Of a stretch of 64,000 bases of DNA, positions 10,636 through 64,000 are shown piece by piece; the stretch's first letter is position 1; every line of letters begins with the position of its first letter. The notes beneath the pieces were generated by a model. The model searched no databases, had not been told where the DNA came from, and worked only from the letters and a program-made list of their open reading frames with translations. The position numbers and the translations under genes were made by a program. Source of the DNA: Candidatus Omnitrophota bacterium (GTDB taxonomy: Bacteria; Omnitrophota; Gorgyraeia; Pluralincolimonadales; CAZUZR01); contig JBDRDF010000032.1 in assembly GCA_043821025.1 (NCBI GenBank), forward strand, positions 11,261 through 75,260. Direction: 5' to 3'.

Positions 10636-10663
10636 TTGACATTTTCTTAGAATTGGGTATAAT
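10636..10663 (+). promoter_or_regulatory. Near-consensus sigma70 promoter, TTGACA-16-TATAAT
   Basis: TTGACA is at 10636-10641 and TATAAT at 10658-10663. It is followed by a roughly 100-nt leader ahead of the GTG start at 10767. Confidence 0.55.
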
Positions 10664-30600: not shown

Positions 30601-30628
30601 TTGACAAAGTTTAATTTTTATGTATACT
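30601..30628 (+). promoter_or_regulatory. Sigma70-like promoter TTGACA-16-TATACT upstream of the Rrf2 gene, with an overlapping imperfect palindrome
   Basis: TTGACA is at 30601-30606 and TATACT at 30623-30628. ACTCTA-N11-TAGAGT lies at 30626-30648. Confidence 0.4.
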
Positions 30629-39544: not shown

Positions 39545-40798
39545 ATGAAAGTAATCTATTCTGGTAATCTTTTCCATGAAGCACAGAAGTATATCCCGGG
39601 TGGAGTAAATAGTCCTGTCCGGTCTTTCAGGGCTGTAGGTGGGTATCCAATATTTGTAAATCATGGGAAGGGTTCAAAGGTTTATAATGAATGTGGCAGG
39701 GAATTTATTGATTATTGCCAAAGTTTCGGTGCATTAATTTTAGGCCACGCTCACCCAAAAGTTGTACGAGAGTTAAGAAAGGTAGTTAACAAAGGTACCA
39801 CTTTTGGAACTCCAACAAAATTAGAGACAGAGTTAGCTAAAATTATCATCGAAGACGTTCCTTCGATACAAAAGATTAGGTTTACTAACTCAGGCACAGA
39901 GGCGGTAATGGGCGCGATCAGACTTGCCAGGGCTTATACAAAAAGAGATAAGATTATAAAATTCGAGGGCTCGTACCATGGTCATGCGGATTATTTATTG
40001 GATTGCGAAGGGGTTCCGAGGGATTTTACAAGGCACACATTAATTACCCCTTATAATAATATAAAGGTAGTTAAAGATTTAATAGAGAAGCATGAAGAGG
40101 ATGTAGCCGCAATAATCGTTGAGCCGATAGCAGCAAATATGGGGGTAGTTTTACCAAAAGATGATTTTCTAAGCGAGTTAAGAAAAATTGCTAGTAAATA
40201 TAATATAATTTTAATTTTCGATGAAGTTATTACTGGTTTTAGACTGATTTTTGGAGGCGCTCAGAAAATATTTGATATTAAACCGGATTTGACGTGTCTA
40301 GGAAAAATAATCGGCGGGGGATTACCGATAGGCGCTTTTGGAGGCAGAAGAGAAATTATGCAACTTTTGGCACCTGAAGGACCTGTCTATCAAGCAGGGA
40401 CTTTCTCAGGCAACCCTGTTTCTATGAGCGCAGGCATAAGTACGTTGAGGATTTTGCACGAATGTAATCCATATAGGAAGGTGGAAGGAATGACTAAATA
40501 TCTTTGTGGGAAAATTAAAGAGTACGCGAATAAACATAAGATCGGGATAGGAATAAATTCTTTTGGTTCCATGTTTAGTATTTTCTTTACAAATAAACAG
40601 ATAACGGATTATAGTATAGCTAAAGCCCAAGATACATCTTTGTTTAAAAAATTCTATCACGGTTTATTAAAAAACGGTGTTTATTTTTCGCCCTCAGGTC
40701 TTGAAGCAGATTTTATTTCGTTAGCACACACGCAAGAAGATATGCAGAAGACCTTACGGGCAGTTGATAAAACATTTAGAAATTTGAGGAGGAGTTAA
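39545..40798 (+). CDS. hemL: Glutamate-1-semialdehyde 2,1-aminomutase (HemL)
   Basis: It has the [18 protein letters not shown] signature. It is a class III aminotransferase. Confidence 0.8.
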
Positions 40799-46449: not shown

Positions 46450-46475
46450 ATTAAGAGTTTCCTTTTTAGATTTAA

Positions 46476-46514
46476 GAGCCAGCTCCATTAAAAGGGGCTG
46501 GCTCTTATTTTTTC
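46476..46514 (+). terminator. Rho-independent terminator of the sulfur operon
   Basis: The stem is AGAGCCAGC/GCTGGCTCT (46476-46484 and 46498-46506) with a 13-nt loop, followed by TATTTTTT. Confidence 0.65.
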
Positions 46515-46516
46515 CT

Positions 46517-46545
46517 TGACAAAAGATGTAGAGTCATATATACTC
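46517..46545 (+). promoter_or_regulatory. Sigma70 promoter TTGACA-17-TATACT for the csoR-cus operon; GGTAT-containing repeats downstream are a candidate CsoR operator
   Basis: TTGACA is at 46517-46522 and TATACT at 46540-46545. It is followed by ctatactGGTATtgGGTATaggtgag and ATG 46575. Confidence 0.5.
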
Positions 46546-56254: not shown

Positions 56255-56281
56255 AATATCTTTTAAAATTCGGAGGTGATT

Positions 56282-57694
56282 ATGCAAAAGTTTAATGGGA
56301 AAATAGCATTAAAAATATTTTTTCTGGGCGTTATTGTATCTTTTGCTATTTTTACTTCAAGCGAAACAGAAGGCGAACTAAGGTCCGGCGTTCACGCTAA
56401 CATTTCAGGATGGTATTTAATCTGGCAAGACGAATTTGAAGTGGATAAGCTTGATTTGTCCAAATGGAGAATCGAAGATGCCGCGTTAATAAAGAACAAC
56501 GAACTGCAATATTATACCCCTGAGGAGGTATACGTCCATGACGGTGTATTAACGCTTAGAAGTCAAAAGAGGCAAATGGGCGGTCGTGAGTATACCTCTG
56601 GTCTCGTTGAGACAAGGGGAAAGTTCTTTTTTCAGTATGGACGTGTGGAGGTCCGCGCGAAACTTCCTGGGACCAAAGGGTTGTGGCCAGCTCACTGGTT
56701 GTTGCCCAATAGCGGGAAATGGCCGCCTGAAATCGATATCATGGAATTGGTCGGGCACAGGCCTAATAGAGTTCACATGACAAATCATTATGGCATCTGG
56801 CCACATAACAGATACGAATCCTCCACCTATTCCGGCCCGGATTTCACAAAGGATTTTCATACCTTTGCCGTTGAATGGGAGCCGAACGAAATCCGTTGGT
56901 ACGTGGATGGCACGCAGCGTTTTTCTACCAAAAAGCACGTTCCGCAGGAACCGTTTTTCATTATTCTTAATACAGCGGTGGGGGGGAATATGCCCGGAAA
57001 TCCGGATGACACGACGGTATTCCCTCAGCATCACAATATAGATTACGTTCGCGTATATGGCAAAGAAATTCCAGGGACTTATTTTTTGGCAACATCAGCC
57101 AATAATGGGTATATAATAACCGAACCCAAACAGGACAGATATAAAAAGAGGTCAAGGGTAAAGCTTACGGCAGTGCCGAATATAGGGTATAAGTTTAGCC
57201 ACTGGAGCGGAGATGTCTTAGCCGAGGGGAATCCAGCCACTATCGTTATGAATAGACATAAAAAAATTACAGCACACTTTGTTATCGATCCAAATGCCCC
57301 AAAACTGCTTTCACAAGGTAAAACCGCTTATGCCTCTTCATTGGAAAATCAGTCATATCCCGCATCAAATGTTGTAGATGGCAATCTAAATACTCGCTGG
57401 TCGTCGGAGTTTTATGATCCCCAGTGGATTTATATTGACCTTGGGGAAGTCCATTCCATGGAAGCGGTAAGATTACAATGGGAGAGCGCCTACGGCAGAG
57501 AGTATAAGATTCAGGTATCAGATGATGCTAAAAGTTGGAGGACTGTATATTCAACGGAAAACGGCATCGGCAAAATGGAAGAGATAACTAATTTAAACGC
57601 TTCGGGAAGATACGTTCGTATTTATGGAACTGCTCGCGGTAAAGAATGGGGTTACTCCCTATGGGAATTTGAGGTCTTTGGCCGGGTTCAATAG
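56282..57694 (+). CDS. GH16-family beta-glucanase (laminarinase-like) with a C-terminal F5/8 type C (discoidin/CBM32-like) domain
   Basis: SD sequence GGAGGTGA is present. The catalytic motif is ExDxxE (EIDIME). The C-terminus has NVVDGNLNTRWSSE...QWIYIDLG. Confidence 0.7.
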   Translation: MQKFNGKIALKIFFLGVIVSFAIFTSSETEGELRSGVHANISGWYLIWQDEFEVDKLDLSKWRIEDAALIKNNELQYYTPEEVYVHDGVLTLRSQKRQMGGREYTSGLVETRGKFFFQYGRVEVRAKLPGTKGLWPAHWLLPNSGKWPPEIDIMELVGHRPNRVHMTNHYGIWPHNRYESSTYSGPDFTKDFHTFAVEWEPNEIRWYVDGTQRFSTKKHVPQEPFFIILNTAVGGNMPGNPDDTTVFPQHHNIDYVRVYGKEIPGTYFLATSANNGYIITEPKQDRYKKRSRVKLTAVPNIGYKFSHWSGDVLAEGNPATIVMNRHKKITAHFVIDPNAPKLLSQGKTAYASSLENQSYPASNVVDGNLNTRWSSEFYDPQWIYIDLGEVHSMEAVRLQWESAYGREYKIQVSDDAKSWRTVYSTENGIGKMEEITNLNASGRYVRIYGTARGKEWGYSLWEFEVFGRVQ

Positions 57695-57695
57695 A

Positions 57696-57727
57696 TTGTA
57701 AACCAAAATCTTAATTTTGGTTGACAA
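57696..57727 (+). promoter_or_regulatory. BirA-type biotin operator (bioO): TTGTAAACC-N14-GGTTGACAA, overlapping the -35 box
   Basis: The half-sites at 57696-57704 and 57719-57727 match E. coli bioO (TTGTAAACC...GGTTTACAA) with one mismatch. Confidence 0.55.
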
Positions 57728-57749
57728 TTAGCCCTCCTTAAATTATAAT
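57721..57749 (+). promoter_or_regulatory. Consensus sigma70 promoter TTGACA-17-TATAAT of the bio operon
   Basis: TTGACA is at 57721-57726 and TATAAT at 57744-57749. An inverted repeat GCCCTCCTT/AAGGAGGGC (57731-57739 and 57758-57766) flanks the -10 box, and its downstream arm is the SD. Confidence 0.6.
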
Positions 57750-57773
57750 CTTAATAAAAGGAGGGCGTTATTT

Positions 57774-58760
57774 TTGTGTTTCATAGAAAAATTAAGAGAT
57801 AAAGTTCTCTCCGGCGAAGATATTTCATTCGGCGAAGCAGAGGAATTATTAAATACATCCGAACGCGAATTTTATTCACTTCTTAGTACCGCAAATTCCA
57901 TCCGCGGGAAATATCGAAGCAATATCGTAAACTTATGTTCCATCACAAACGCGAAATCCGGAAACTGCCCTGAGGATTGCGCATTTTGTTCTCAGTCCAG
58001 CTATCATAATGCTGATGTCCCGGAATATCCCTTACTTTCTGCCGATGAGATATTGAATAGAGCCAGAGAAGCTGCTAAAGTAAAGACGAACAGGTTTTGT
58101 ATCGTTATAAGCGGCAGAGGGGTAGATGAACTAGATGAACTTGATACCATTTGCGATGTGATTAGAAAAGTAAGGGTTGAATTCCCGAAACTTAAAATCG
58201 ATGCCTCCCTCGGATTTATTTCTAAAGAAGGGATTTATAGATTAAAGGAGGCAGGCCTTACAAGGTATAACCATAATTTAGAGACGGCAAAAAGCTATTT
58301 TTCCAGCGTATGCACAACTCACCGTTACGAAGATAGGGTCGCAACCATCAAGGATTTAAAGGAAGCAGAATTGGAGGTCTGTTGCGGCGGGATTTTCGGA
58401 TTGGGCGAGACGCAAAATCAGAGATTGGAGCTTGCATTCGCGTTAAGGGAATTAGATGTTGATTGTGTTCCGATCAATTTTTTAAATCCAATAGCCGGAA
58501 CGCAATTTGAAAATAACCCGCCTTTAAAACCATTGGAATTGCTTAAGATGATTGCTATCTATAGATTTATCCTGCCGAAAAAAGAGATAAGGATCTGCGG
58601 TGGCAGGCAAGTAAATTTACGAAGCCTTCAACCATTGATTTTTACTGCTGGAGCAGATGCGATTATTATCGGAAATTACCTAACGACCAAAGGCAGTACT
58701 CCTGAAGAAGATTTAAAGATGATAGAAGATATGGGATTAAAAGTCGATGGAGCCTCTTAG
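57774..58760 (+). CDS. bioB: Biotin synthase (radical SAM)
   Basis: A TTG start lies 7 nt after AGGAGGG. It has Cx3Cx2C (GNCPEDCAFC) and YNHNLET. Confidence 0.85.
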   Translation: MCFIEKLRDKVLSGEDISFGEAEELLNTSEREFYSLLSTANSIRGKYRSNIVNLCSITNAKSGNCPEDCAFCSQSSYHNADVPEYPLLSADEILNRAREAAKVKTNRFCIVISGRGVDELDELDTICDVIRKVRVEFPKLKIDASLGFISKEGIYRLKEAGLTRYNHNLETAKSYFSSVCTTHRYEDRVATIKDLKEAELEVCCGGIFGLGETQNQRLELAFALRELDVDCVPINFLNPIAGTQFENNPPLKPLELLKMIAIYRFILPKKEIRICGGRQVNLRSLQPLIFTAGADAIIIGNYLTTKGSTPEEDLKMIEDMGLKVDGAS

Positions 58761-59913
58761 GAAGGAATTGGACGAATTAGAGGAGAGGGGACTGCGTCGT
58801 GTTTTGCGCCTTTTGGAAGGCGAGCAGAGAGAAAAGGTCGTAGTTGATGGGAAGGAAGTTCTAAATTTTTGTTCGAACAATTATTTGGGGCTTGCTAATG
58901 ATGAGCGCTTGAAAAACGCAGCGAAAGAAGCGTTAGATAGATACGGATTGGGTTCGGGTGCATCGAGGCTCGTCGTCGGAAATATGAGCCTTCATAGAAG
59001 ATTGGAAGAGAAGATAGCCGCCTTCAAGGGTTACGAGGCGGCTTTATTATTTAATTCTGGCTACACTGCAAACTTGGGTGCAATTTCAGCATTGTGCGGG
59101 AAGAACGATATCGTATTCTCCGATAAATTAAATCATGCCTCCATAGTCGACGGTATTCTCTTAAGCCGAGCAGAATTTAAGCGTTATCCGCATAAGGATA
59201 TGGACGCCCTTGAGGATATGCTTAAAAATTCAGATGGATTTAGGCGCAAGATAATTATAACCGATACGATTTTTAGTATGGACGGAGACATAACGCCGTT
59301 GCCAAAGATCGTTGAGTTAGCAGAGAAATACGGTACATGGGTTTACATAGACGAAGCGCATGCAACAGGCGTCTTAGGTAAAAAAGGCAAGGGAGCGGTT
59401 GAGCATTTTGGTTTAGACGGAAAGGTCCGGGTTCAGATGGGGACTTTAAGTAAAGCAGTTGGTTCGTTCGGCGCATTTATCTGCGGCTCTAAAACGTTAA
59501 TCGATTATTTGATAAATAAGTCGAGAGGTTTTATCTATACGACATCTCTTCCGCCTTCAATTTGTGCGGCATCTATTGTAGCTTTGGAAATAATCGAGAG
59601 GGAATCCGAGTTACGTAAGAAATTATGGGAAAACGTCGCATTTTTAAAAGAGGGCTTGAAGGAGCTTGGGTTCGATACATTGGAAAGCCAGACGCCTATA
59701 ATTCCGATTTTGACGAAAGAGCCAAAGATCACAATGGAATTTAGTAAAAGGTGTTACGAGTATGGAATTTTTGTGCAGGGCATTCGCCCGCCGACGGTGC
59801 CGGAGGGAAAAGCGCGGCTTAGGGTTACAGTTATGGCAACACATAAGAGAGGCGATTTGGAAAAGGCACTCGATTTGTTTAAAAAGGTCGGCAGAGAGTT
59901 GTGGATAATATAA
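58747..59913 (+). CDS. bioF: 8-amino-7-oxononanoate synthase
   Basis: It is a fold-type I PLP enzyme with the lysine motif GTLSKAVGSFG. It sits in the bio operon. Confidence 0.8.
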   Translation: MEPLRKELDELEERGLRRVLRLLEGEQREKVVVDGKEVLNFCSNNYLGLANDERLKNAAKEALDRYGLGSGASRLVVGNMSLHRRLEEKIAAFKGYEAALLFNSGYTANLGAISALCGKNDIVFSDKLNHASIVDGILLSRAEFKRYPHKDMDALEDMLKNSDGFRRKIIITDTIFSMDGDITPLPKIVELAEKYGTWVYIDEAHATGVLGKKGKGAVEHFGLDGKVRVQMGTLSKAVGSFGAFICGSKTLIDYLINKSRGFIYTTSLPPSICAASIVALEIIERESELRKKLWENVAFLKEGLKELGFDTLESQTPIIPILTKEPKITMEFSKRCYEYGIFVQGIRPPTVPEGKARLRVTVMATHKRGDLEKALDLFKKVGRELWII

Positions 59914-60647
59914 TGAATTACCAAATAAGAGGAAAGGGAAGGAATCTCTTTTTCATTCACGGTTGGGGATGCGATTCTCGAGTTTGGGCAAAACTGGTAG
60001 AATCGCTATCGAAAAAATTCTGTGTAATAACGATAGACTTAAGGGGATATGGCAAGTCGGAATGGAGAAGCGAGAATGATTTGCTCGATGCTTTTGCGAC
60101 TGATATTTTGATGCTTTGCAAGGAATTGAATTTAAAGGAGATAAATTTTATAGGTTGGTCTTTAGGTTGCTATGTAATTTTTGAGCTACTTGGGAACGCG
60201 CCTGAAATTATAAACTCAATTGTTTTAGTCGGTGGCACCCCAAAATTTTTAAAGGGCGATGGATTTGAGTTCGGATTCGAAGGGTCAAATTTAAGGCTTA
60301 TGAGGCGTAGGTTAAATCGGGACTTCAATGGTGCGCTTTTAGATTTTTGTCGTTCGATATTTTTTGAAAACAACGAAGGACCGCAACCAAATAAAGATGC
60401 GTTGATTTCGAGCTTAAATATATTGGAGCACGCCGATTTCCGGCAAGATATAAAACGGATTGATACGCCAACGCTGATTGTCTGTGGCGAAGGCGATTCG
60501 ATAACTCCAAAAGCTGCATCCGAATACTTGCACAAGGAGATTAAAGGTTCAAAATTGGTAATCATAAAGGATGCCGGCCATGTTCCCTTTTTGACCCGCC
60601 CAAAAGAATTCAATCGGATTTTAGAAAAATGGATAAACGGAAGATAA
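59901..60647 (+). CDS. bioH: Pimeloyl-ACP methyl ester esterase (alpha/beta hydrolase)
   Basis: It has the GWSLGC nucleophile elbow. The N-terminus is colinear with E. coli BioH (LFFIHGWGCDSRVW...DLRGYGKS). Confidence 0.7.
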   Translation: MDNIMNYQIRGKGRNLFFIHGWGCDSRVWAKLVESLSKKFCVITIDLRGYGKSEWRSENDLLDAFATDILMLCKELNLKEINFIGWSLGCYVIFELLGNAPEIINSIVLVGGTPKFLKGDGFEFGFEGSNLRLMRRRLNRDFNGALLDFCRSIFFENNEGPQPNKDALISSLNILEHADFRQDIKRIDTPTLIVCGEGDSITPKAASEYLHKEIKGSKLVIIKDAGHVPFLTRPKEFNRILEKWINGR

Positions 60648-61435
60648 CCGCTTTTTCAAGAGCTGCCAAAACATACGATGAAAATGCTTGGCTTCAGCGC
60701 GAGATGTGGGGTGAGCTTTTTCAGCGCCTTAAGCCTCTAAGTTTAAATTATAACCATATAGTAGATATAGGAATGGGAACCGGAAGGCATACATATGAAT
60801 TGGCTGTCCTTTATCCGGATGCTTTTGTAGTCGGGTTTGATATAGCATCGGGCATGGTTAAATATGCAGCGGACAAAAGATCGTTCCCATCGAATAGGCC
60901 GTTTGTATTACAGGCAGATTTAAATGAGATGCCGTTTAAAGAAGAATCATTTGATATTGCCGTATCTAATGTCGTATATCAAAGTATTCCGGAACTTTTC
61001 GAAGCTTTTTTAGATGTCGAAAGAATTTTAAAACCCAAAGGATTTTTCTGTCTCTCTTTGTTGACAAAAAATACACTATATGAATTACATCTTTCTTTTG
61101 AGAGGGCTTATAAAAATATAAATGGCCTGATACCGCCAACAATTCACGATCATCCTACGGATTCAGCCGTGCTTAGCGCTTTAAAAAAAGCTGGGTTTTC
61201 TATTGTTAAGGTTATGAGATTTAAAAGGCGCCCTGCTTATAAATCAACGTACGAAATCCTCGAGTGGTTAAAAAACATCGGCGCAAATCATCATTATGAT
61301 AATTGGATTCAAGGTATAGGAGGTAGGGCGGTCTTGAAAGAGATAGATGAGATTTACAAAGAAAGATATTCTTCAAACGGCACAATTTTCGCTACCCTTG
61401 AAGGTTTAATAATAAGCGCGAAGAGGAAAGATTGA
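60629..61435 (+). CDS. bioC: Malonyl-ACP O-methyltransferase
   Basis: It has the BioC N-terminus (FSRAAKTYDENAWLQREM) and the SAM motif DIGMGTG. Confidence 0.7.
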   Translation: MDKRKITAFSRAAKTYDENAWLQREMWGELFQRLKPLSLNYNHIVDIGMGTGRHTYELAVLYPDAFVVGFDIASGMVKYAADKRSFPSNRPFVLQADLNEMPFKEESFDIAVSNVVYQSIPELFEAFLDVERILKPKGFFCLSLLTKNTLYELHLSFERAYKNINGLIPPTIHDHPTDSAVLSALKKAGFSIVKVMRFKRRPAYKSTYEILEWLKNIGANHHYDNWIQGIGGRAVLKEIDEIYKERYSSNGTIFATLEGLIISAKRKD

Positions 61436-63549
61436 GGAAGGGAATTTTTATAACAGGGACTGATACCGAGATCGGAAAGACATTTATCGGCGCCGCAATC
61501 GCTTACGGCTTAAAGAAGAAAGGCATCGACTGCGGCGTTATGAAGCCCATTCAATCTGGGGCGATAAAAAAGGATGGTAAGTTAATTTCGCAGGACGCTG
61601 AATTTTTAGTTCGAGCAAGCGACGCAAGGGATGAACTTTCTTTAATCAATCCATATTGTTTTAAAGTTCCGCTTGCCCCAAGCGTGGCTGCAAAAATAGA
61701 AAGAAGAATTATATCGCCGAAAAAGATAATCAACGCATTTAACGTCTTAAGCGCTAGACATCAATTTATGATTGTAGAAGGTGCGGGCGGACTTTTAGTG
61801 CCTATAAGCGATGGATATTTGATGAAGGACCTTGTCTTAGATTTAAATTTACCGATTTTGATAATCTCCCGTTTAGGGTTGGGCACAATAAATCACACGC
61901 TTTTGACAATCGAGGCCGCCCGTAATTTAGGGATTAAGAACGTTGGGATTATATTTAATCAGATCGAAGATAAACCCTTAACGATATGCGAAAAGACAAA
62001 TCCAAAGATAATCTCGAATTTGACAGGAGTTCCGATATTAGGAGCAATCTCACACATTCCTAAGATCGATGCGAAGCGGATTAGGTTAAATATATTAGAA
62101 GATGTTGTGAAGAAAATAGATCTGTCTTCAATTTTGAATGAGAATGGCACAGCTGATAAGAATTATCTAAAAGTTTGGGACAGAAAATATATTTGGCACC
62201 CATTTACGCAAATGAAGGACTACGAAAAAGCAGAGCCTTTGGTTATCGAGGAAGGAAAGGGCTCGTATTTAAAAGATATCGATGGCAGATGGTATTTAGA
62301 CGGCGTATCTTCTTTATGGGTAAATGTCCATGGGCATAGAAACGAAAGATTAAACAGGGTTGTTCGAGAGCAATTGAATAAGATTGCACATTCAACTTTG
62401 CTAGGCGTAGGTAATGAACCCTCAATTGAATTGGCGAAGCGATTGATAGGAATTGCACCTCGTGGCTTGACGAAGGTATTTTATTCAGACAATGGTTCTA
62501 CGGCGGTTGAGATAGCGTTGAAGATGGCGTTTCAGTATTGGCAGCAGAAAGGAAAAAAGGAAAAGGTAAAGTTTATCACTTTTGTAAATGCATACCATGG
62601 AGACACAATAGGCTCGGTTAGCGTCGGTGGCATAGATTTATTTCACAAGATTTATAAGCCGCTTTTGTTTAAATCAATTAAGGTCAATGCCCCATATTGT
62701 TATAGGTGCCACCTAAGTCTGACTTATCCAAAGTGTAAGATAAGATGCCTTAGAGAAATAGAGAGGACAATGAGACGATATCATAACCACGTTGCAGCAC
62801 TTATAATCGAGCCCTTAATTCAAGCGGCAGCGGGAATGATTACACAGCCCAAGGGATTTATTAGAAGATTGCGTAAGTTGTGCGATAGATATGGAATTTT
62901 ATTGATTTTAGATGAGGTTGCCACCGGTTTCGGAAGGACTGGTAGGATGTTCGCATGCGAGCATGAAAATGTCACGCCGGATTTTTTATGCCTTGCTAAA
63001 TCTATCACAGGAGGATATTTGCCATTGGCGGCAACGCTTACTACGGACGAGGTCTATTCAGGATTTCTCGGGGATTACTCTGAGAAAAAGACATTTTTTC
63101 ACGGACATACCTATTCGGGAAATCCATTGGCATGCAAAGTAGCAATCGCTAATTTGGAAATTTTTAAGAAAGAGAAAACATTAAGGAAACTGCAGCCAAA
63201 AATAGAATTTTTAAAGAATAATTTAAGGAGATTTTACGATTTAGACCACGTAGGCGACATAAGGCAACAGGGGATGATGACTGGGATTGAGTTGGTAAAG
63301 AATGAGTCAACAAAAGAACCATATAAATGGGAAGATAGGACAGGGTGGAAGGTGATAGAGGAATTAAGAAAACATGGAATTATCTTAAGGCCGCTTGGGC
63401 CAGTCATCGTCCTTATGCCGCCGCTCAATATCTCCATAAAAGACCTTCGTTTTCTGTTGCGCACCACTTATAATGCCATAGGGACGGTTCTGATGCCAAA
63501 GCTAAAAGTGTCCCCTTATCCACAAGGAAAGGGACACTTCCCTGATTAG
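61432..63549 (+). CDS. bioDA: Bifunctional dethiobiotin synthetase (BioD) / adenosylmethionine-8-amino-7-oxononanoate aminotransferase (BioA) fusion
   Basis: The N-terminal P-loop reads ITGTDTEIGKT (BioD). From about residue 255, the BioA part reads YIWHPFTQM, with class III aminotransferase motifs. Confidence 0.75.
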   Translation: MRKGIFITGTDTEIGKTFIGAAIAYGLKKKGIDCGVMKPIQSGAIKKDGKLISQDAEFLVRASDARDELSLINPYCFKVPLAPSVAAKIERRIISPKKIINAFNVLSARHQFMIVEGAGGLLVPISDGYLMKDLVLDLNLPILIISRLGLGTINHTLLTIEAARNLGIKNVGIIFNQIEDKPLTICEKTNPKIISNLTGVPILGAISHIPKIDAKRIRLNILEDVVKKIDLSSILNENGTADKNYLKVWDRKYIWHPFTQMKDYEKAEPLVIEEGKGSYLKDIDGRWYLDGVSSLWVNVHGHRNERLNRVVREQLNKIAHSTLLGVGNEPSIELAKRLIGIAPRGLTKVFYSDNGSTAVEIALKMAFQYWQQKGKKEKVKFITFVNAYHGDTIGSVSVGGIDLFHKIYKPLLFKSIKVNAPYCYRCHLSLTYPKCKIRCLREIERTMRRYHNHVAALIIEPLIQAAAGMITQPKGFIRRLRKLCDRYGILLILDEVATGFGRTGRMFACEHENVTPDFLCLAKSITGGYLPLAATLTTDEVYSGFLGDYSEKKTFFHGHTYSGNPLACKVAIANLEIFKKEKTLRKLQPKIEFLKNNLRRFYDLDHVGDIRQQGMMTGIELVKNESTKEPYKWEDRTGWKVIEELRKHGIILRPLGPVIVLMPPLNISIKDLRFLLRTTYNAIGTVLMPKLKVSPYPQGKGHFPD

Positions 63550-63571
63550 CACAAGAACCGTCCCTTTTTTC

Positions 63572-63599
63572 TTGACAATGTTCAAATTTTTATTATACT
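63572..63599 (+). promoter_or_regulatory. Sigma70 promoter TTGACA-16-TATACT of the TetR gene
   Basis: TTGACA is at 63572-63577 and TATACT at 63594-63599. Confidence 0.5.
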
Positions 63600-63600
63600 A

Positions 63601-63624
63601 TATTGAGTGAGCACTCACTCAATA
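63601..63624 (+). promoter_or_regulatory. Perfect 11-2-11 palindrome TATTGAGTGAG-ca-CTCACTCAATA (candidate TetR autoregulatory operator)
   Basis: It lies directly between the -10 box and the SD/ATG (63635). Confidence 0.55.
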
Positions 63625-63634
63625 AGGAAAGGAT

Positions 63635-64000
63635 ATGGGCACAGTAGACATTTCAGAGTTAAATACTCGTCAAAAGATAATTAACGCGGCACTTTTGGTT
63701 GCAGCGAAAGAGGGCTTTATAAGGGCCACCACAGACCAGATAGCCAAAAGAGCCGGTGTCTCCGAAGGCATAATCTATCACTATTTTAAGAGCAAATACG
63801 ACCTTTGCTGCAATATGATAAAGGAGTATGCCGAAGAGTTCAGACAAAAACTTGTTGATGAAATCGAGAAAAGCCGCACCGCAAAAGATAAATTAGGCAA
63901 ATTGATAGATTTCCATTTTGAGTATTTTACCGGGAAGGATAATATCTTTCAGGCAATCTATGGAAAGTCAGGCGATACAACGGTAATGATGGGTCATATC
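63635..64000 (+). CDS. TetR/AcrR-family transcriptional regulator (3' end lies outside the window)
   Basis: It has an N-terminal HTH (RQKIINAALLVAAKEGFIRATTDQIAKRAGVSEGIIYHYFKSKYDL). The ORF is open to the window end. It is absent from the ORF track. Confidence 0.65.
   Translation, partial: MGTVDISELNTRQKIINAALLVAAKEGFIRATTDQIAKRAGVSEGIIYHYFKSKYDLCCNMIKEYAEEFRQKLVDEIEKSRTAKDKLGKLIDFHFEYFTGKDNIFQAIYGKSGDTTVMMGHI

What the first reader, a model, noticed from the sequence alone, without database searches (positions are those of the whole stretch)
57696..57766. E. coli-type BirA operator overlapping a perfect consensus promoter of the bio operon, plus an RBS-sequestering inverted repeat
- **Operator.** TTGTAAACC-N14-GGTTGACAA matches bioO with one mismatch. 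Its right half-site contains the -35 TTGACA. The promoter is TTGACA-17-TATAAT.
- **Second repeat.** A 9-bp inverted repeat GCCCTCCTT/AAGGAGGGC places the SD in its 3' arm.
- **Implication.** This implies a group II BirA (with HTH) in this organism and classic biotin-dependent repression.
Basis: partly seen in the sequence, partly recalled or inferred. Interest (0 to 1): 0.5.

Follow-up and report, generated by a model that had tools for sequence, protein, structure and literature searches.

The report
Biotin-repressor operator, promoter and nested terminator
This is the ordinary biotin-repressor (BirA) binding site overlapping the promoter of a biotin-synthesis operon, here in an uncultured Omnitrophota bacterium. 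The second hairpin probably stops or silences transcripts running in from the upstream gene and does not regulate the operon's own mRNA.

Summary
**Observation: confirmed.**
- Window 57696-57727 is TTGTAAACC-N14-GGTTGACAA.
- The right half-site contains the -35 of a 12/12 promoter, TTGACA-17-TATAAT (57721-57749).
- A 9-bp GC-rich inverted repeat (57731-57739 / 57758-57766) has the Shine-Dalgarno (SD) sequence in its 3' arm.
- Downstream lies bioB-bioF-bioH-like-bioC-bioD/A.

**Conservation.**
- The module is conserved upstream of bioB in six further distinct relatives (BioB 71-92% identical), behind three different upstream genes.
- It is more conserved than synonymous sites.
- The same N14 motif precedes bioB in Firmicutes, Nitrospirota and Thermodesulfobacteriota, and matches the published BirA consensus. 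E. coli's own operator is N16.

**The hairpin.**
- It is real, with compensatory changes.
- Its 5' arm lies inside the promoter spacer and -10, upstream of the predicted start site. It therefore cannot mask the ribosome-binding site (RBS) in the bio promoter's own transcript.
- With its U-tract it looks like the upstream gene's intrinsic terminator, nested around the -10 and start site.

**Limit.** No birA could be retrieved for this lineage, so "group II BirA" remains inferred.

**Verdict.** A new member of a known kind, of low interest. The nested terminator geometry is a modest curiosity.

The parts
56276..57694 (+). Upstream co-directional gene (GH16 glycoside hydrolase with F5/8 type C domain). 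Its stop codon (57692-57694) is one base from the operator half-site at 57696.
   Evidence: ORF list; Pfam GH16 and F5_F8_type_C.
57695..57728 (.). BirA-type operator. Half-sites TTGTAAACC (57696-57704) and GGTTGACAA (57719-57727) are separated by 14 A/T-rich nt. It spans about -60 to -29 relative to the predicted start site.
   Evidence: Conserved in relatives. Consensus TTGTAAACC-[N14/15]-GGTTTACAA (PMC545781).
57721..57726 (+). -35 hexamer TTGACA, inside the right operator half-site.
   Evidence: Invariant in all relatives that carry the module.
57744..57749 (+). -10 hexamer TATAAT, 17 nt after the -35. The predicted transcription start is near 57756 (inferred from the usual 6-9 nt distance).
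   Evidence: TATAAT or TACAAT lies at 17-18 nt in every relative.
57731..57745 (+). 5' arm of the hairpin (anti-SD GCCCTCCTT plus ATTA). It lies in the promoter spacer and the first two bases of the -10, so it is transcribed only by polymerases arriving from upstream.
57752..57766 (+). 3' arm of the hairpin (TAAT...AAGGAGGGC). It contains the Shine-Dalgarno core GGAGG at 57760-57764.
57767..57781 (+). U-rich tract GTTATTTTTGTGTTT directly after the stem (7 U in the first 10 nt). It includes the TTG start codon of bioB. Predicted termination zone for read-through transcripts.
57774..58760 (+). bioB (biotin synthase). The TTG start is conserved in all relatives.
   Evidence: Pfam Radical_SAM and BATS. 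100% identical to an NCBI 'MAG: biotin synthase BioB [Candidatus Omnitrophota bacterium]'. TTG starts.
58747..59913 (+). bioF (8-amino-7-oxononanoate synthase type aminotransferase).
59901..60647 (+). bioH-like alpha/beta hydrolase.
60629..61435 (+). bioC-like methyltransferase.
61432..63549 (+). bioD-bioA fusion (dethiobiotin synthetase domain plus class III aminotransferase).
   Evidence: Pfam AAA_26 at residues 3-215 and Aminotran_3 at residues 268-675.
63531..63570 (+). Hairpin GGGAC...GTCCC plus T6 at the end of the operon, abutting the -35 of the next promoter (63572). Probable operon terminator.

Best explanation
The 57695-57781 stretch is a compact three-in-one control region for the bioB-F-H-C-D/A operon of an uncultured Omnitrophota bacterium.

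**1. Operator (inferred from sequence class and conservation)**
- A dimer of a bifunctional biotin ligase/repressor (group II BirA) binds when loaded with biotinyl-5'-AMP, that is, when biotin is plentiful.
- It binds the palindrome TTGTAAACC-N14-GGTTGACAA, which spans about -60 to -29.

**2. Promoter**
- The right half-site is itself the -35 (TTGACA) of a consensus sigma-70 promoter with TATAAT 17 nt downstream.
- Bound repressor therefore excludes RNA polymerase. This is classic promoter occlusion, as at other BirA-regulated bio promoters.

**3. Hairpin**
- The second inverted repeat is not a translational switch of the bio mRNA.
- Its 5' arm lies in the promoter spacer and -10, upstream of the start site. 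Transcripts initiated here begin inside the hairpin, carry only the 3' arm and have a free Shine-Dalgarno sequence.
- Only RNA made by polymerases reading in from the upstream gene, whose stop codon lies one base before the operator, contains both arms.
- That RNA forms a GC-rich stem of -15 to -18.5 kcal/mol, followed by a U-tract that ends at the bioB start codon.
- I take this to be the upstream gene's intrinsic terminator, with SD masking as a second safeguard.
- It insulates the operon, so that bio expression depends only on the BirA-controlled promoter.

**Shown versus inferred**
- Shown: the sequences, their conservation, the covariation and the geometry.
- Inferred: BirA binding, the start site, and termination.
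For: **Operon.** The gene set downstream is a complete bio operon.

**Motif.**
- 17 of 18 half-site positions match, with N14 spacing, as in the published BirA consensus and the delta-proteobacterial sites. An example is Geobacter bioB, TTGTcAACC-N14-aGTTgACAA (PMC545781).
- In about 1 Mb of fetched loci, the motif at >=16/18 occurs 27 times. Of these, 26 lie <=270 nt upstream of bioB, in Omnitrophota relatives, Moorella, Thermoanaerobacterium, Clostridium, Nitrospirota, Thermodesulfobacteriota and E. coli.
- In many of these the right half-site again supplies a TTGACA -35, with a -10-like hexamer (TAnnnT, often far from consensus) 16-18 nt on.

**Conservation.**
- The module is present in L042, L043/L044, L002, L095, L046, L047/L049 and L080.
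- It sits behind three different upstream genes: GH16, a nitroreductase and a 259-aa protein of unknown function.
- For the six relatives compared, the operator-to-(-10) stretch is 85-98% identical. Third codon positions of identical BioB residues are 52-85% identical.

**Promoter.**
- Five of the six >=11/12 sigma-70 matches in the window are intergenic, and all six are on the + strand.

**Hairpin.**
- z is -4.6.
- 8-17 pairs bridge the spacer/-10 and the SD region in all six distinct sequences folded (L095 read by eye).
- Clean double substitutions occur: U-A to C-G between the window and L002, and A-U to C-G between L047 and L080.
- The arms are rebuilt in L046.
- There are 6-7 U in the 10 nt after the stem in five of the six distinct sequences.

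**Genome context.**
- Other consensus promoters in the window lack such a hairpin.
- Instead, they have a terminator immediately upstream of their -35 (46473-46544 and 63531-63599). At the bio promoter the operator occupies that slot.

**RNA families.** No Rfam family matches.
Against: - No birA gene, and so no N-terminal helix-turn-helix, was found for this lineage. It is absent from the window and from the 95 loci searched, and the rest of the genome was out of reach.
- The start site is predicted, not mapped.
- In L046, L047 and L080 the 'loop' is 22-36 nt. L046 has only 4 U in 10 after the stem. Termination there would be weak, and SD masking may be the conserved function.
- L095 keeps the hairpin although about 120 nt of other sequence separates it from the upstream gene.
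- L045 and L097 (BioB 83% identical) show a different, GC-rich sequence upstream of bioB and no operator within the 162-254 nt available.
- The tool's simple terminator scan does not flag the hairpin, probably because of the 2x2 internal loop.
Confidence: 0.7

Rival explanations
1. The hairpin is part of the bio operon's own mRNA and masks the ribosome-binding site, adding translational control on top of BirA repression.
For: - The 3' arm does contain the SD, and the pairing is conserved with compensatory changes.
- A weaker alternative pairing of the SD with codons 12-14 exists in the promoter-derived transcript (dG -12.9, z -2.1).
Against: - The 5' arm (57731-57745) lies between the -35 and the -10 of the only good, conserved promoter. 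It is therefore not transcribed from that promoter.
- No alternative conserved promoter lies upstream, because the upstream sequences differ between relatives.
- The SD-to-coding-region pairing is not conserved in L002, L046 or L047.
Confidence: 0.08
2. The hairpin's selected function is only to mask the SD, giving translational silencing of bioB on read-through transcripts. There is no termination, and the U-richness is just the AT-rich SD-to-start spacer.
For: - The 3' arm always includes the SD.
- In L046, L047 and L080 the loop is long, and in L046 the U-tract is poor.
- L095 keeps the hairpin far from the upstream gene.
Against: - In the window, L042, L043 and L002 the element has every hallmark of an intrinsic terminator: a GC-rich stem, 7 U in the next 10 nt, and 6-18 unpaired nt at its tip.
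- No other terminator follows the upstream gene.
- The genome demonstrably uses hairpin plus T-tract terminators next to promoters.
Confidence: 0.17
3. The operator is bound by a regulator other than BirA, for example the TetR-family protein encoded just after the operon, by analogy with BioQ of actinobacteria.
For: A TetR gene follows bioD/A in both the window and L002.
Against: - The TetR gene has its own distinct perfect palindrome, TTGAGTGAGCACTCACTCAA, at its own promoter. That palindrome occurs nowhere else in the window.
- The bioB site matches the cross-phylum BirA consensus in both sequence and spacing.
- The TetR C-terminal domain resembles the YsiA/FadR type.
Confidence: 0.03
4. The second inverted repeat is a DNA binding site for a second dimeric regulator, not an RNA structure.
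For: It is a palindrome within a promoter. Concerted change of both arms is also expected for a symmetric protein site.
Against: - The arm sequences are not conserved, only their complementarity.
- The number of unpaired bases at the hairpin tip varies from 6 to 22 nt, with a structured 36-nt insert in L047. A fixed protein dimer would not tolerate this.
Confidence: 0.02

Closest known systems
E. coli bioO / BirA (bifunctional biotin ligase-repressor)
   Same: - The half-site sequences match: TTGTAAACC / GGTTTACAA, 17 of 18.
- It is a palindromic site overlapping the promoter directly upstream of bioB.
- The expected logic is repression by the biotinyl-5'-AMP-loaded dimer (PMC4016012).
   Different: - 14 nt separate the half-sites, against 16 in E. 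coli.
- There is one unidirectional promoter with the -35 inside the right half-site, instead of E. coli's divergent bioA/bioBFCD promoters (own knowledge).
- The repressor itself was not found here.
Predicted BirA sites of delta-proteobacteria, Firmicutes and other phyla (Rodionov et al. consensus TTGTAAACC-[N14/15]-GGTTTACAA)
   Same: - N14 spacing.
- The promoter-proximal half-site variant (G/A)GTTGACAA, which creates a TTGACA -35.
- A position 60-150 nt upstream of bioB.
   Different: - The phylum is different (Omnitrophota; NCBI label of the identical BioB).
- None of the other lineages I inspected has the anti-SD sequence in the promoter spacer.
Promoter-coupled terminators (Fletcher et al. 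2026 preprint, bioRxiv 10.64898/2026.08.19.745784)
   Same: The terminator of one transcription unit and the promoter of the next tandem unit share the same DNA. The window has two canonical examples, at 46473-46544 and 63531-63599.
   Different: - In the described class the termination site lies about 10 bp upstream of the start site, and the stem-loop sits at or upstream of the -35.
- At the bio promoter the order is reversed. The stem encloses the -10 and the start site, and the predicted termination point is about 15-20 nt downstream of the start site.
SD-sequestering hairpins (riboswitch expression platforms, RNA thermometers)
   Same: An anti-SD tract pairs with the ribosome-binding site.
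   Different: The anti-SD arm is not part of the regulated operon's own transcript. There is no aptamer and no known RNA family. The 5' UTR is only about 18 nt long.

Membership tests
BirA operator (bioO) / BirA regulon | Imperfect palindrome matching TTGTAAACC-[N14/15]-GGTTTACAA | tested here: met
   17 of 18 positions with N14 spacing. Consensus from PMC545781.
BirA operator (bioO) / BirA regulon | Located upstream of biotin synthesis or transport genes and overlapping their promoter | tested here: met
   The site lies 78 nt upstream of bioB of a bioBF(H)C-D/A operon. The right half-site contains the -35 of a 12/12 promoter. The promoter is predicted, not mapped.
BirA operator (bioO) / BirA regulon | Site conserved upstream of bio genes in related genomes | tested here: met
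   - Present in six further distinct relatives (seven sequences with the window), behind three different upstream genes.
- 85-98% identical, against 52-85% at synonymous positions (six relatives compared).
- Absent or not visible in L045 and L097 (contig ends), and in L050 and L051, where bioB is internal to another operon.
BirA operator (bioO) / BirA regulon | Genome encodes a group II biotin protein ligase with an N-terminal winged helix-turn-helix | not testable with these tools
   - No BPL gene is in the window or in the 95 loci searched. I used tblastn with E. coli and B. subtilis BirA, recalled from memory, plus a GRGRxGRxW motif scan.
- Protein searches list only the 120 best hits, so a phylum-specific BirA could not be reached without a seed sequence.
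BirA operator (bioO) / BirA regulon | Biotinyl-5'-AMP-dependent binding of BirA to the site | not testable with these tools
   This needs EMSA or footprinting.
Intrinsic (Rho-independent) terminator | GC-rich stem, short loop, and an immediately following U-tract, downstream of a co-directional gene | tested here: met
   - Window: a 9-bp stem with 6 G-C pairs plus a 4-bp extension, a 6-nt loop, dG -18.5, and 7 U in the next 10 nt. It begins 37 nt after the GH16 stop codon.
- L046 and the L047 type meet the feature less well, with long loops, and L046 has a weak U-tract.
- The tool's strict scan did not list it.
Intrinsic (Rho-independent) terminator | RNA 3' ends at the U-tract | not testable with these tools
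   This needs Term-seq or in-vitro transcription.
   The 5' arm (57731-57745) is upstream of the predicted start site (about 57756), inside the spacer and -10. This rests on promoter prediction plus conservation of the hexamers.
Promoter-coupled terminator (termination site <=35 bp upstream of the start site, stem at or upstream of the -35) | Termination site upstream of the coupled start site | tested here: not met
   - At the bio promoter the predicted termination zone (57768-57778) is downstream of the predicted start site.
- The canonical geometry is met at 46473-46544 and 63531-63599 (definition).

The most novel reading that the evidence does not exclude
The hairpin is a terminator deliberately built around the -10 and start site of a repressor-controlled promoter.
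- Polymerases arriving from upstream transcribe both arms. They are terminated, and any survivors carry a masked SD.
- Polymerases that initiate inside the hairpin are immune.
- This would be an inverse geometry of the recently described promoter-coupled terminators.
- It has been kept by compensatory evolution across an uncultured Omnitrophota clade, and it gives complete insulation of a vitamin-regulated operon within about 85 bp.
Probability: 0.45. Interest if true: 0.4.

Novelty: new member of a known kind. Interest (0 to 1): 0.25.

Why it matters
- It extends the very widely conserved BirA operator, with the same half-sites, the same N14 spacing and the same trick of using the half-site as the -35, to a candidate phylum known almost only from metagenomes.
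- It shows that near-consensus sigma-70 promoters and hairpin terminators can be read directly from these genomes.
- The one less ordinary point is architectural. An insulating hairpin nested around the promoter's -10 and start site would be a compact design principle, useful for annotating compact genomes and for synthetic insulators.
- That point is an inference from sequence and needs RNA-end mapping.

Tried and rejected
1. **Finding birA.**
   - tblastn with E. coli and B. subtilis BirA (both recalled from memory) and a GRGRxGRxW motif scan found nothing in the window or the 95 loci held at that point.
   - The identical NCBI contig is not indexed for look-up.
   - I judged a generic BirA protein search useless, because only the 120 best hits are listed, so I did not run one.
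   - Papers on Omnitrophota mention biotin genes but not BirA.
2. **Formal covariation count on one alignment.** MAFFT cannot keep the 3' arms in register across the indel-bearing lineages. I used per-sequence folds instead.
3. **Known RNA family in the leader.** None was found.
4. **A second operator copy at window 39654** (N16, 16/18). It lies inside a hemL-like coding frame, so I treat it as chance.
5. **TetR as the regulator.** Its palindrome is unique to its own promoter.
6. **SD pairing with codons 12-14 in the promoter-derived transcript.** It is weak (z -2.1) and not conserved.
7. **Rodionov et al. 2002** is not held in the library. The consensus was taken from the 2004 paper that cites it.

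Full report
**What is there**

Reading window 57400-58100 shows the following layout.
- The stop codon TAG of a 472-aa gene ends at 57694. The gene is a GH16 glycoside hydrolase with an F5/8 type C domain.
- It is followed at once by ATTGTAAACCAAAAT-CTTA-ATTTTGGTTGACAAT.
- The 9-mers TTGTAAACC (57696-57704) and GGTTGACAA (57719-57727) are 14 nt apart, and the palindrome really has 15-nt arms.
- TTGACA (57721-57726), inside the right half-site, is followed after 17 nt by TATAAT (57744-57749). This is the only 12/12 promoter match in the region.
- GCCCTCCTT (57731-57739) and AAGGAGGGC (57758-57766) form a perfect 9-bp inverted repeat. It extends by a 4-bp AT helix around a 6-nt loop.
- As RNA the repeat folds at -18.5 kcal/mol, with z -4.6.
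- The SD core GGAGG (57760-57764) lies 9 nt before a TTG start codon at 57774.

Chance does not explain any of this.
- 0.07 operator matches per window are expected even at three mismatches.
- None occurred at one mismatch in 200 random windows, and 0.05 perfect promoters are expected per window.

**Genes and organism**

- Downstream lie bioB (Radical_SAM and BATS), bioF, a bioH-like hydrolase, a bioC-like methyltransferase and a bioD-bioA fusion.
- The BioB protein is 100% identical to an NCBI entry named 'MAG: biotin synthase BioB [Candidatus Omnitrophota bacterium]' on an 83.6-kb contig. Most hits at 53-61% identity that carry an organism name are also labelled Omnitrophota or Omnitrophica.
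- The nearest species representatives in the genome collection are MAGs labelled 'uncultured Planctomycetia' (82% and 97%). I did not resolve this difference in labels.

**Conservation**

I recovered the bioB upstream region from six further distinct relatives (nine loci).

| Locus | BioB identity to window |
|---|---|
| L042 | 92% |
| L043 / L044 | 90% |
| L095 | 83% |
| L002 | 82% |
| L046 | 79% |
| L047 / L049 | 76-77% |
| L080 | 71% |

- All of them carry the same module: the N14 operator, TTGACA, a 17-18 nt spacer, TATAAT or TACAAT, a spacer-to-SD hairpin and a TTG start.
- The gene upstream differs: GH16, a nitroreductase, or a 259-aa protein of unknown function. The module therefore travels with bioB.
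- For the six relatives compared (L095 was not included), from the operator to the -10 the sequences are 85-98% identical to the window. Third positions of codons for identical BioB residues are only 52-85% identical. The region is under purifying selection.

**What the palindrome is**

- A paper by the group that defined the BirA signal gives the consensus TTGTAAACC-[N14/15]-GGTTTACAA. It lists predicted sites such as Geobacter bioB TTGTcAACC-[N14]-aGTTgACAA and Desulfuromonas bioB ...-[N14]-GGTTgACAA (PMC545781).
- I scanned the roughly 1 Mb of loci fetched around bioB homologues for this motif at >=16/18. There were 27 hits, and 26 of them lie within 270 nt upstream of bioB.
- Those hits come from the Omnitrophota clade, Moorella/Neomoorella, Thermoanaerobacterium, Clostridium, Nitrospirota, Thermodesulfobacteriota, a Nitrosopumilales-labelled MAG and E. 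coli. The 27th hit, window 39654, lies inside a coding frame.
- Nearly all have N14. E. coli's own operator lies between bioA and bioB and has N16.
- In many of these lineages the bioB-proximal half-site reads xGTTGACAA and supplies a TTGACA -35, with a -10-like hexamer (TAnnnT, often far from consensus) 16-18 nt on.
- The window's arrangement is therefore the standard cross-phylum BirA design and is not specifically E. coli-type.
- B. subtilis BirA binds such sites only with biotin plus ATP and as a dimer. Group II ligases carry the N-terminal helix-turn-helix (PMC4016012).
- With a start site near 57756, the operator covers about -60 to -29. Bound repressor would block the -35 and upstream contacts.

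**What the second repeat is**

The geometry is decisive.
- The 5' arm (57731-57745) occupies the promoter spacer and the first two bases of the -10. A transcript started 6-9 nt after the -10 therefore contains only the 3' arm.
- That transcript has an 18-nt leader and a free SD.
- Only RNA made by polymerases arriving from the upstream gene contains both arms.

The pairing is nevertheless clearly selected.
- In all six distinct sequences folded, 8-17 base pairs bridge the spacer/-10 and the SD region, at dG -15 to -18.5.
- There are clean double substitutions: U-A in the window becomes C-G in L002, and A-U in L047 becomes C-G in L080.
- The arms are rebuilt in L046.
- Arm sequence and arm distance vary, but complementarity does not. 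That favours an RNA structure over a protein-binding palindrome.

The context points to a terminator.
- The stem is followed by GUUAUUUUUG, and there are 6-7 U in the 10 nt after the stem in five of the six sequences folded.
- No other terminator follows the upstream gene, whose stop codon lies one base before the operator.
- Elsewhere in the window, terminators sit immediately upstream of the next promoter's -35 (46473-46507 then 46516; 63531-63570 then 63572). The other near-consensus promoters have no spacer-SD hairpin.
- That canonical arrangement matches the 'promoter-coupled terminators' of a 2026 preprint, in which termination sites lie about 10 bp upstream of start sites.
- At the bio promoter the operator occupies that slot, and the terminator-like hairpin is instead wrapped around the -10 and start site.

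My best reading is that it terminates read-through transcripts and masks the SD on any that survive. The operon then answers only to the BirA-controlled promoter.

Several points weaken this reading.
- In L046, L047 and L080 the loop is long, and in L046 the U-tract is poor.
- L095 keeps the hairpin at a distance from its upstream gene.
- SD masking alone is therefore a serious rival.

**What could not be shown**

- I could not find birA for this lineage. It is absent from the window and from the 95 loci held at that point.
- The claim of a group II BirA therefore rests on the site's class and its conservation.
- The start site and termination are predictions.

**Alternatives considered**

- A TetR gene follows the operon in both the window and L002. 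It has its own distinct, unique palindrome, so it is unlikely to act at the bioB site.
- No Rfam family matches the leader.

**Verdict**

- The operator and promoter are an ordinary BirA control region in a new phylum. This is a new member of a known kind, of low interest.
- The nested terminator/insulator reading is a modest novelty that would need RNA-end mapping.

Noticed in passing
L045:1-254 and L097:1-162: - Two relatives (BioB 83% identical, independent samples) have a conserved GC-rich element (my estimate about 60% GC, in an AT-rich lineage) directly upstream of the bioB SD, in place of the operator and promoter.
- An internal hairpin differs by compensatory changes.
- There is no Rfam hit and no copy in the window or the other loci.
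- Both contigs break inside the element. That suggests a repeated or mobile element, but a structured bioB leader is not excluded.
   Followed up: partly
window 63572-63640 (and L002:11995-12585): - A TetR-family gene (YsiA/FadR-like C-terminal domain) follows bioD/A in both genomes.
- It has its own near-consensus promoter (TTGACA-16-TATACT).
- A perfect 20-bp palindrome, TTGAGTGAGCACTCACTCAA (63603-63622), occurs nowhere else in the window. It is presumably the gene's own operator.
   Followed up: partly
window 46473-46544 and 63531-63599: Two hairpin plus T-tract terminators abut the -35 of the next near-consensus promoter. This is the canonical 'promoter-coupled terminator' geometry described in a 2026 preprint.
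   Followed up: partly
window 63481-63514 and 63531-63564; L042:3878-3911: - A 34-nt element, GGGAC...GTCCC, occurs as an inverted pair at the end of bioD/A. The first copy lies inside the coding 3' end.
- In L042 a copy lies between the GH16 stop codon and the operator.
- It looks like a small REP- or MITE-like repeat that can double as a terminator stem.
   Followed up: partly
window 10636-10663, 30601-30628, 46516-46544, 57721-57749, 63572-63599: Five of the six >=11/12 sigma-70 promoter matches in the window are intergenic, and all six are on the + strand. Near-consensus promoters therefore seem to be real and readable in this Omnitrophota genome.
   Followed up: partly
window 61432-63549: bioD and bioA are fused into one 705-aa protein. 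The fusion is also present in L002 and L042.
   Followed up: no
L080:9995 onward: In this relative bioB reads through only 173 codons. This could be a frameshift, a pseudogene or an assembly error.
   Followed up: no
L047:3960-4000 and L080: The 5' UTR holds a degenerate SD-like AAAGGACGA at the position of the window's SD. It is followed by an insertion of about 19 nt carrying the working SD, and the hairpin has shifted to the new SD.
   Followed up: partly
window 57756-57815: In the promoter-derived transcript, the SD can pair with codons 12-14 of bioB (GUUCUCUCC). The pairing has dG -12.9 and z -2.1, and is not conserved in the more distant relatives. It is probably fortuitous.
   Followed up: yes
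window 39654-39687: A weak operator-like match, TTGTAAATC-N16-GGTTTATAA (16/18), lies inside a hemL-like coding frame. I treat it as chance.
   Followed up: yes
The taxonomic labels conflict. The identical BioB is labelled Candidatus Omnitrophota, while the closest species-representative MAGs (82% and 97%) are labelled uncultured Planctomycetia.
   Followed up: no
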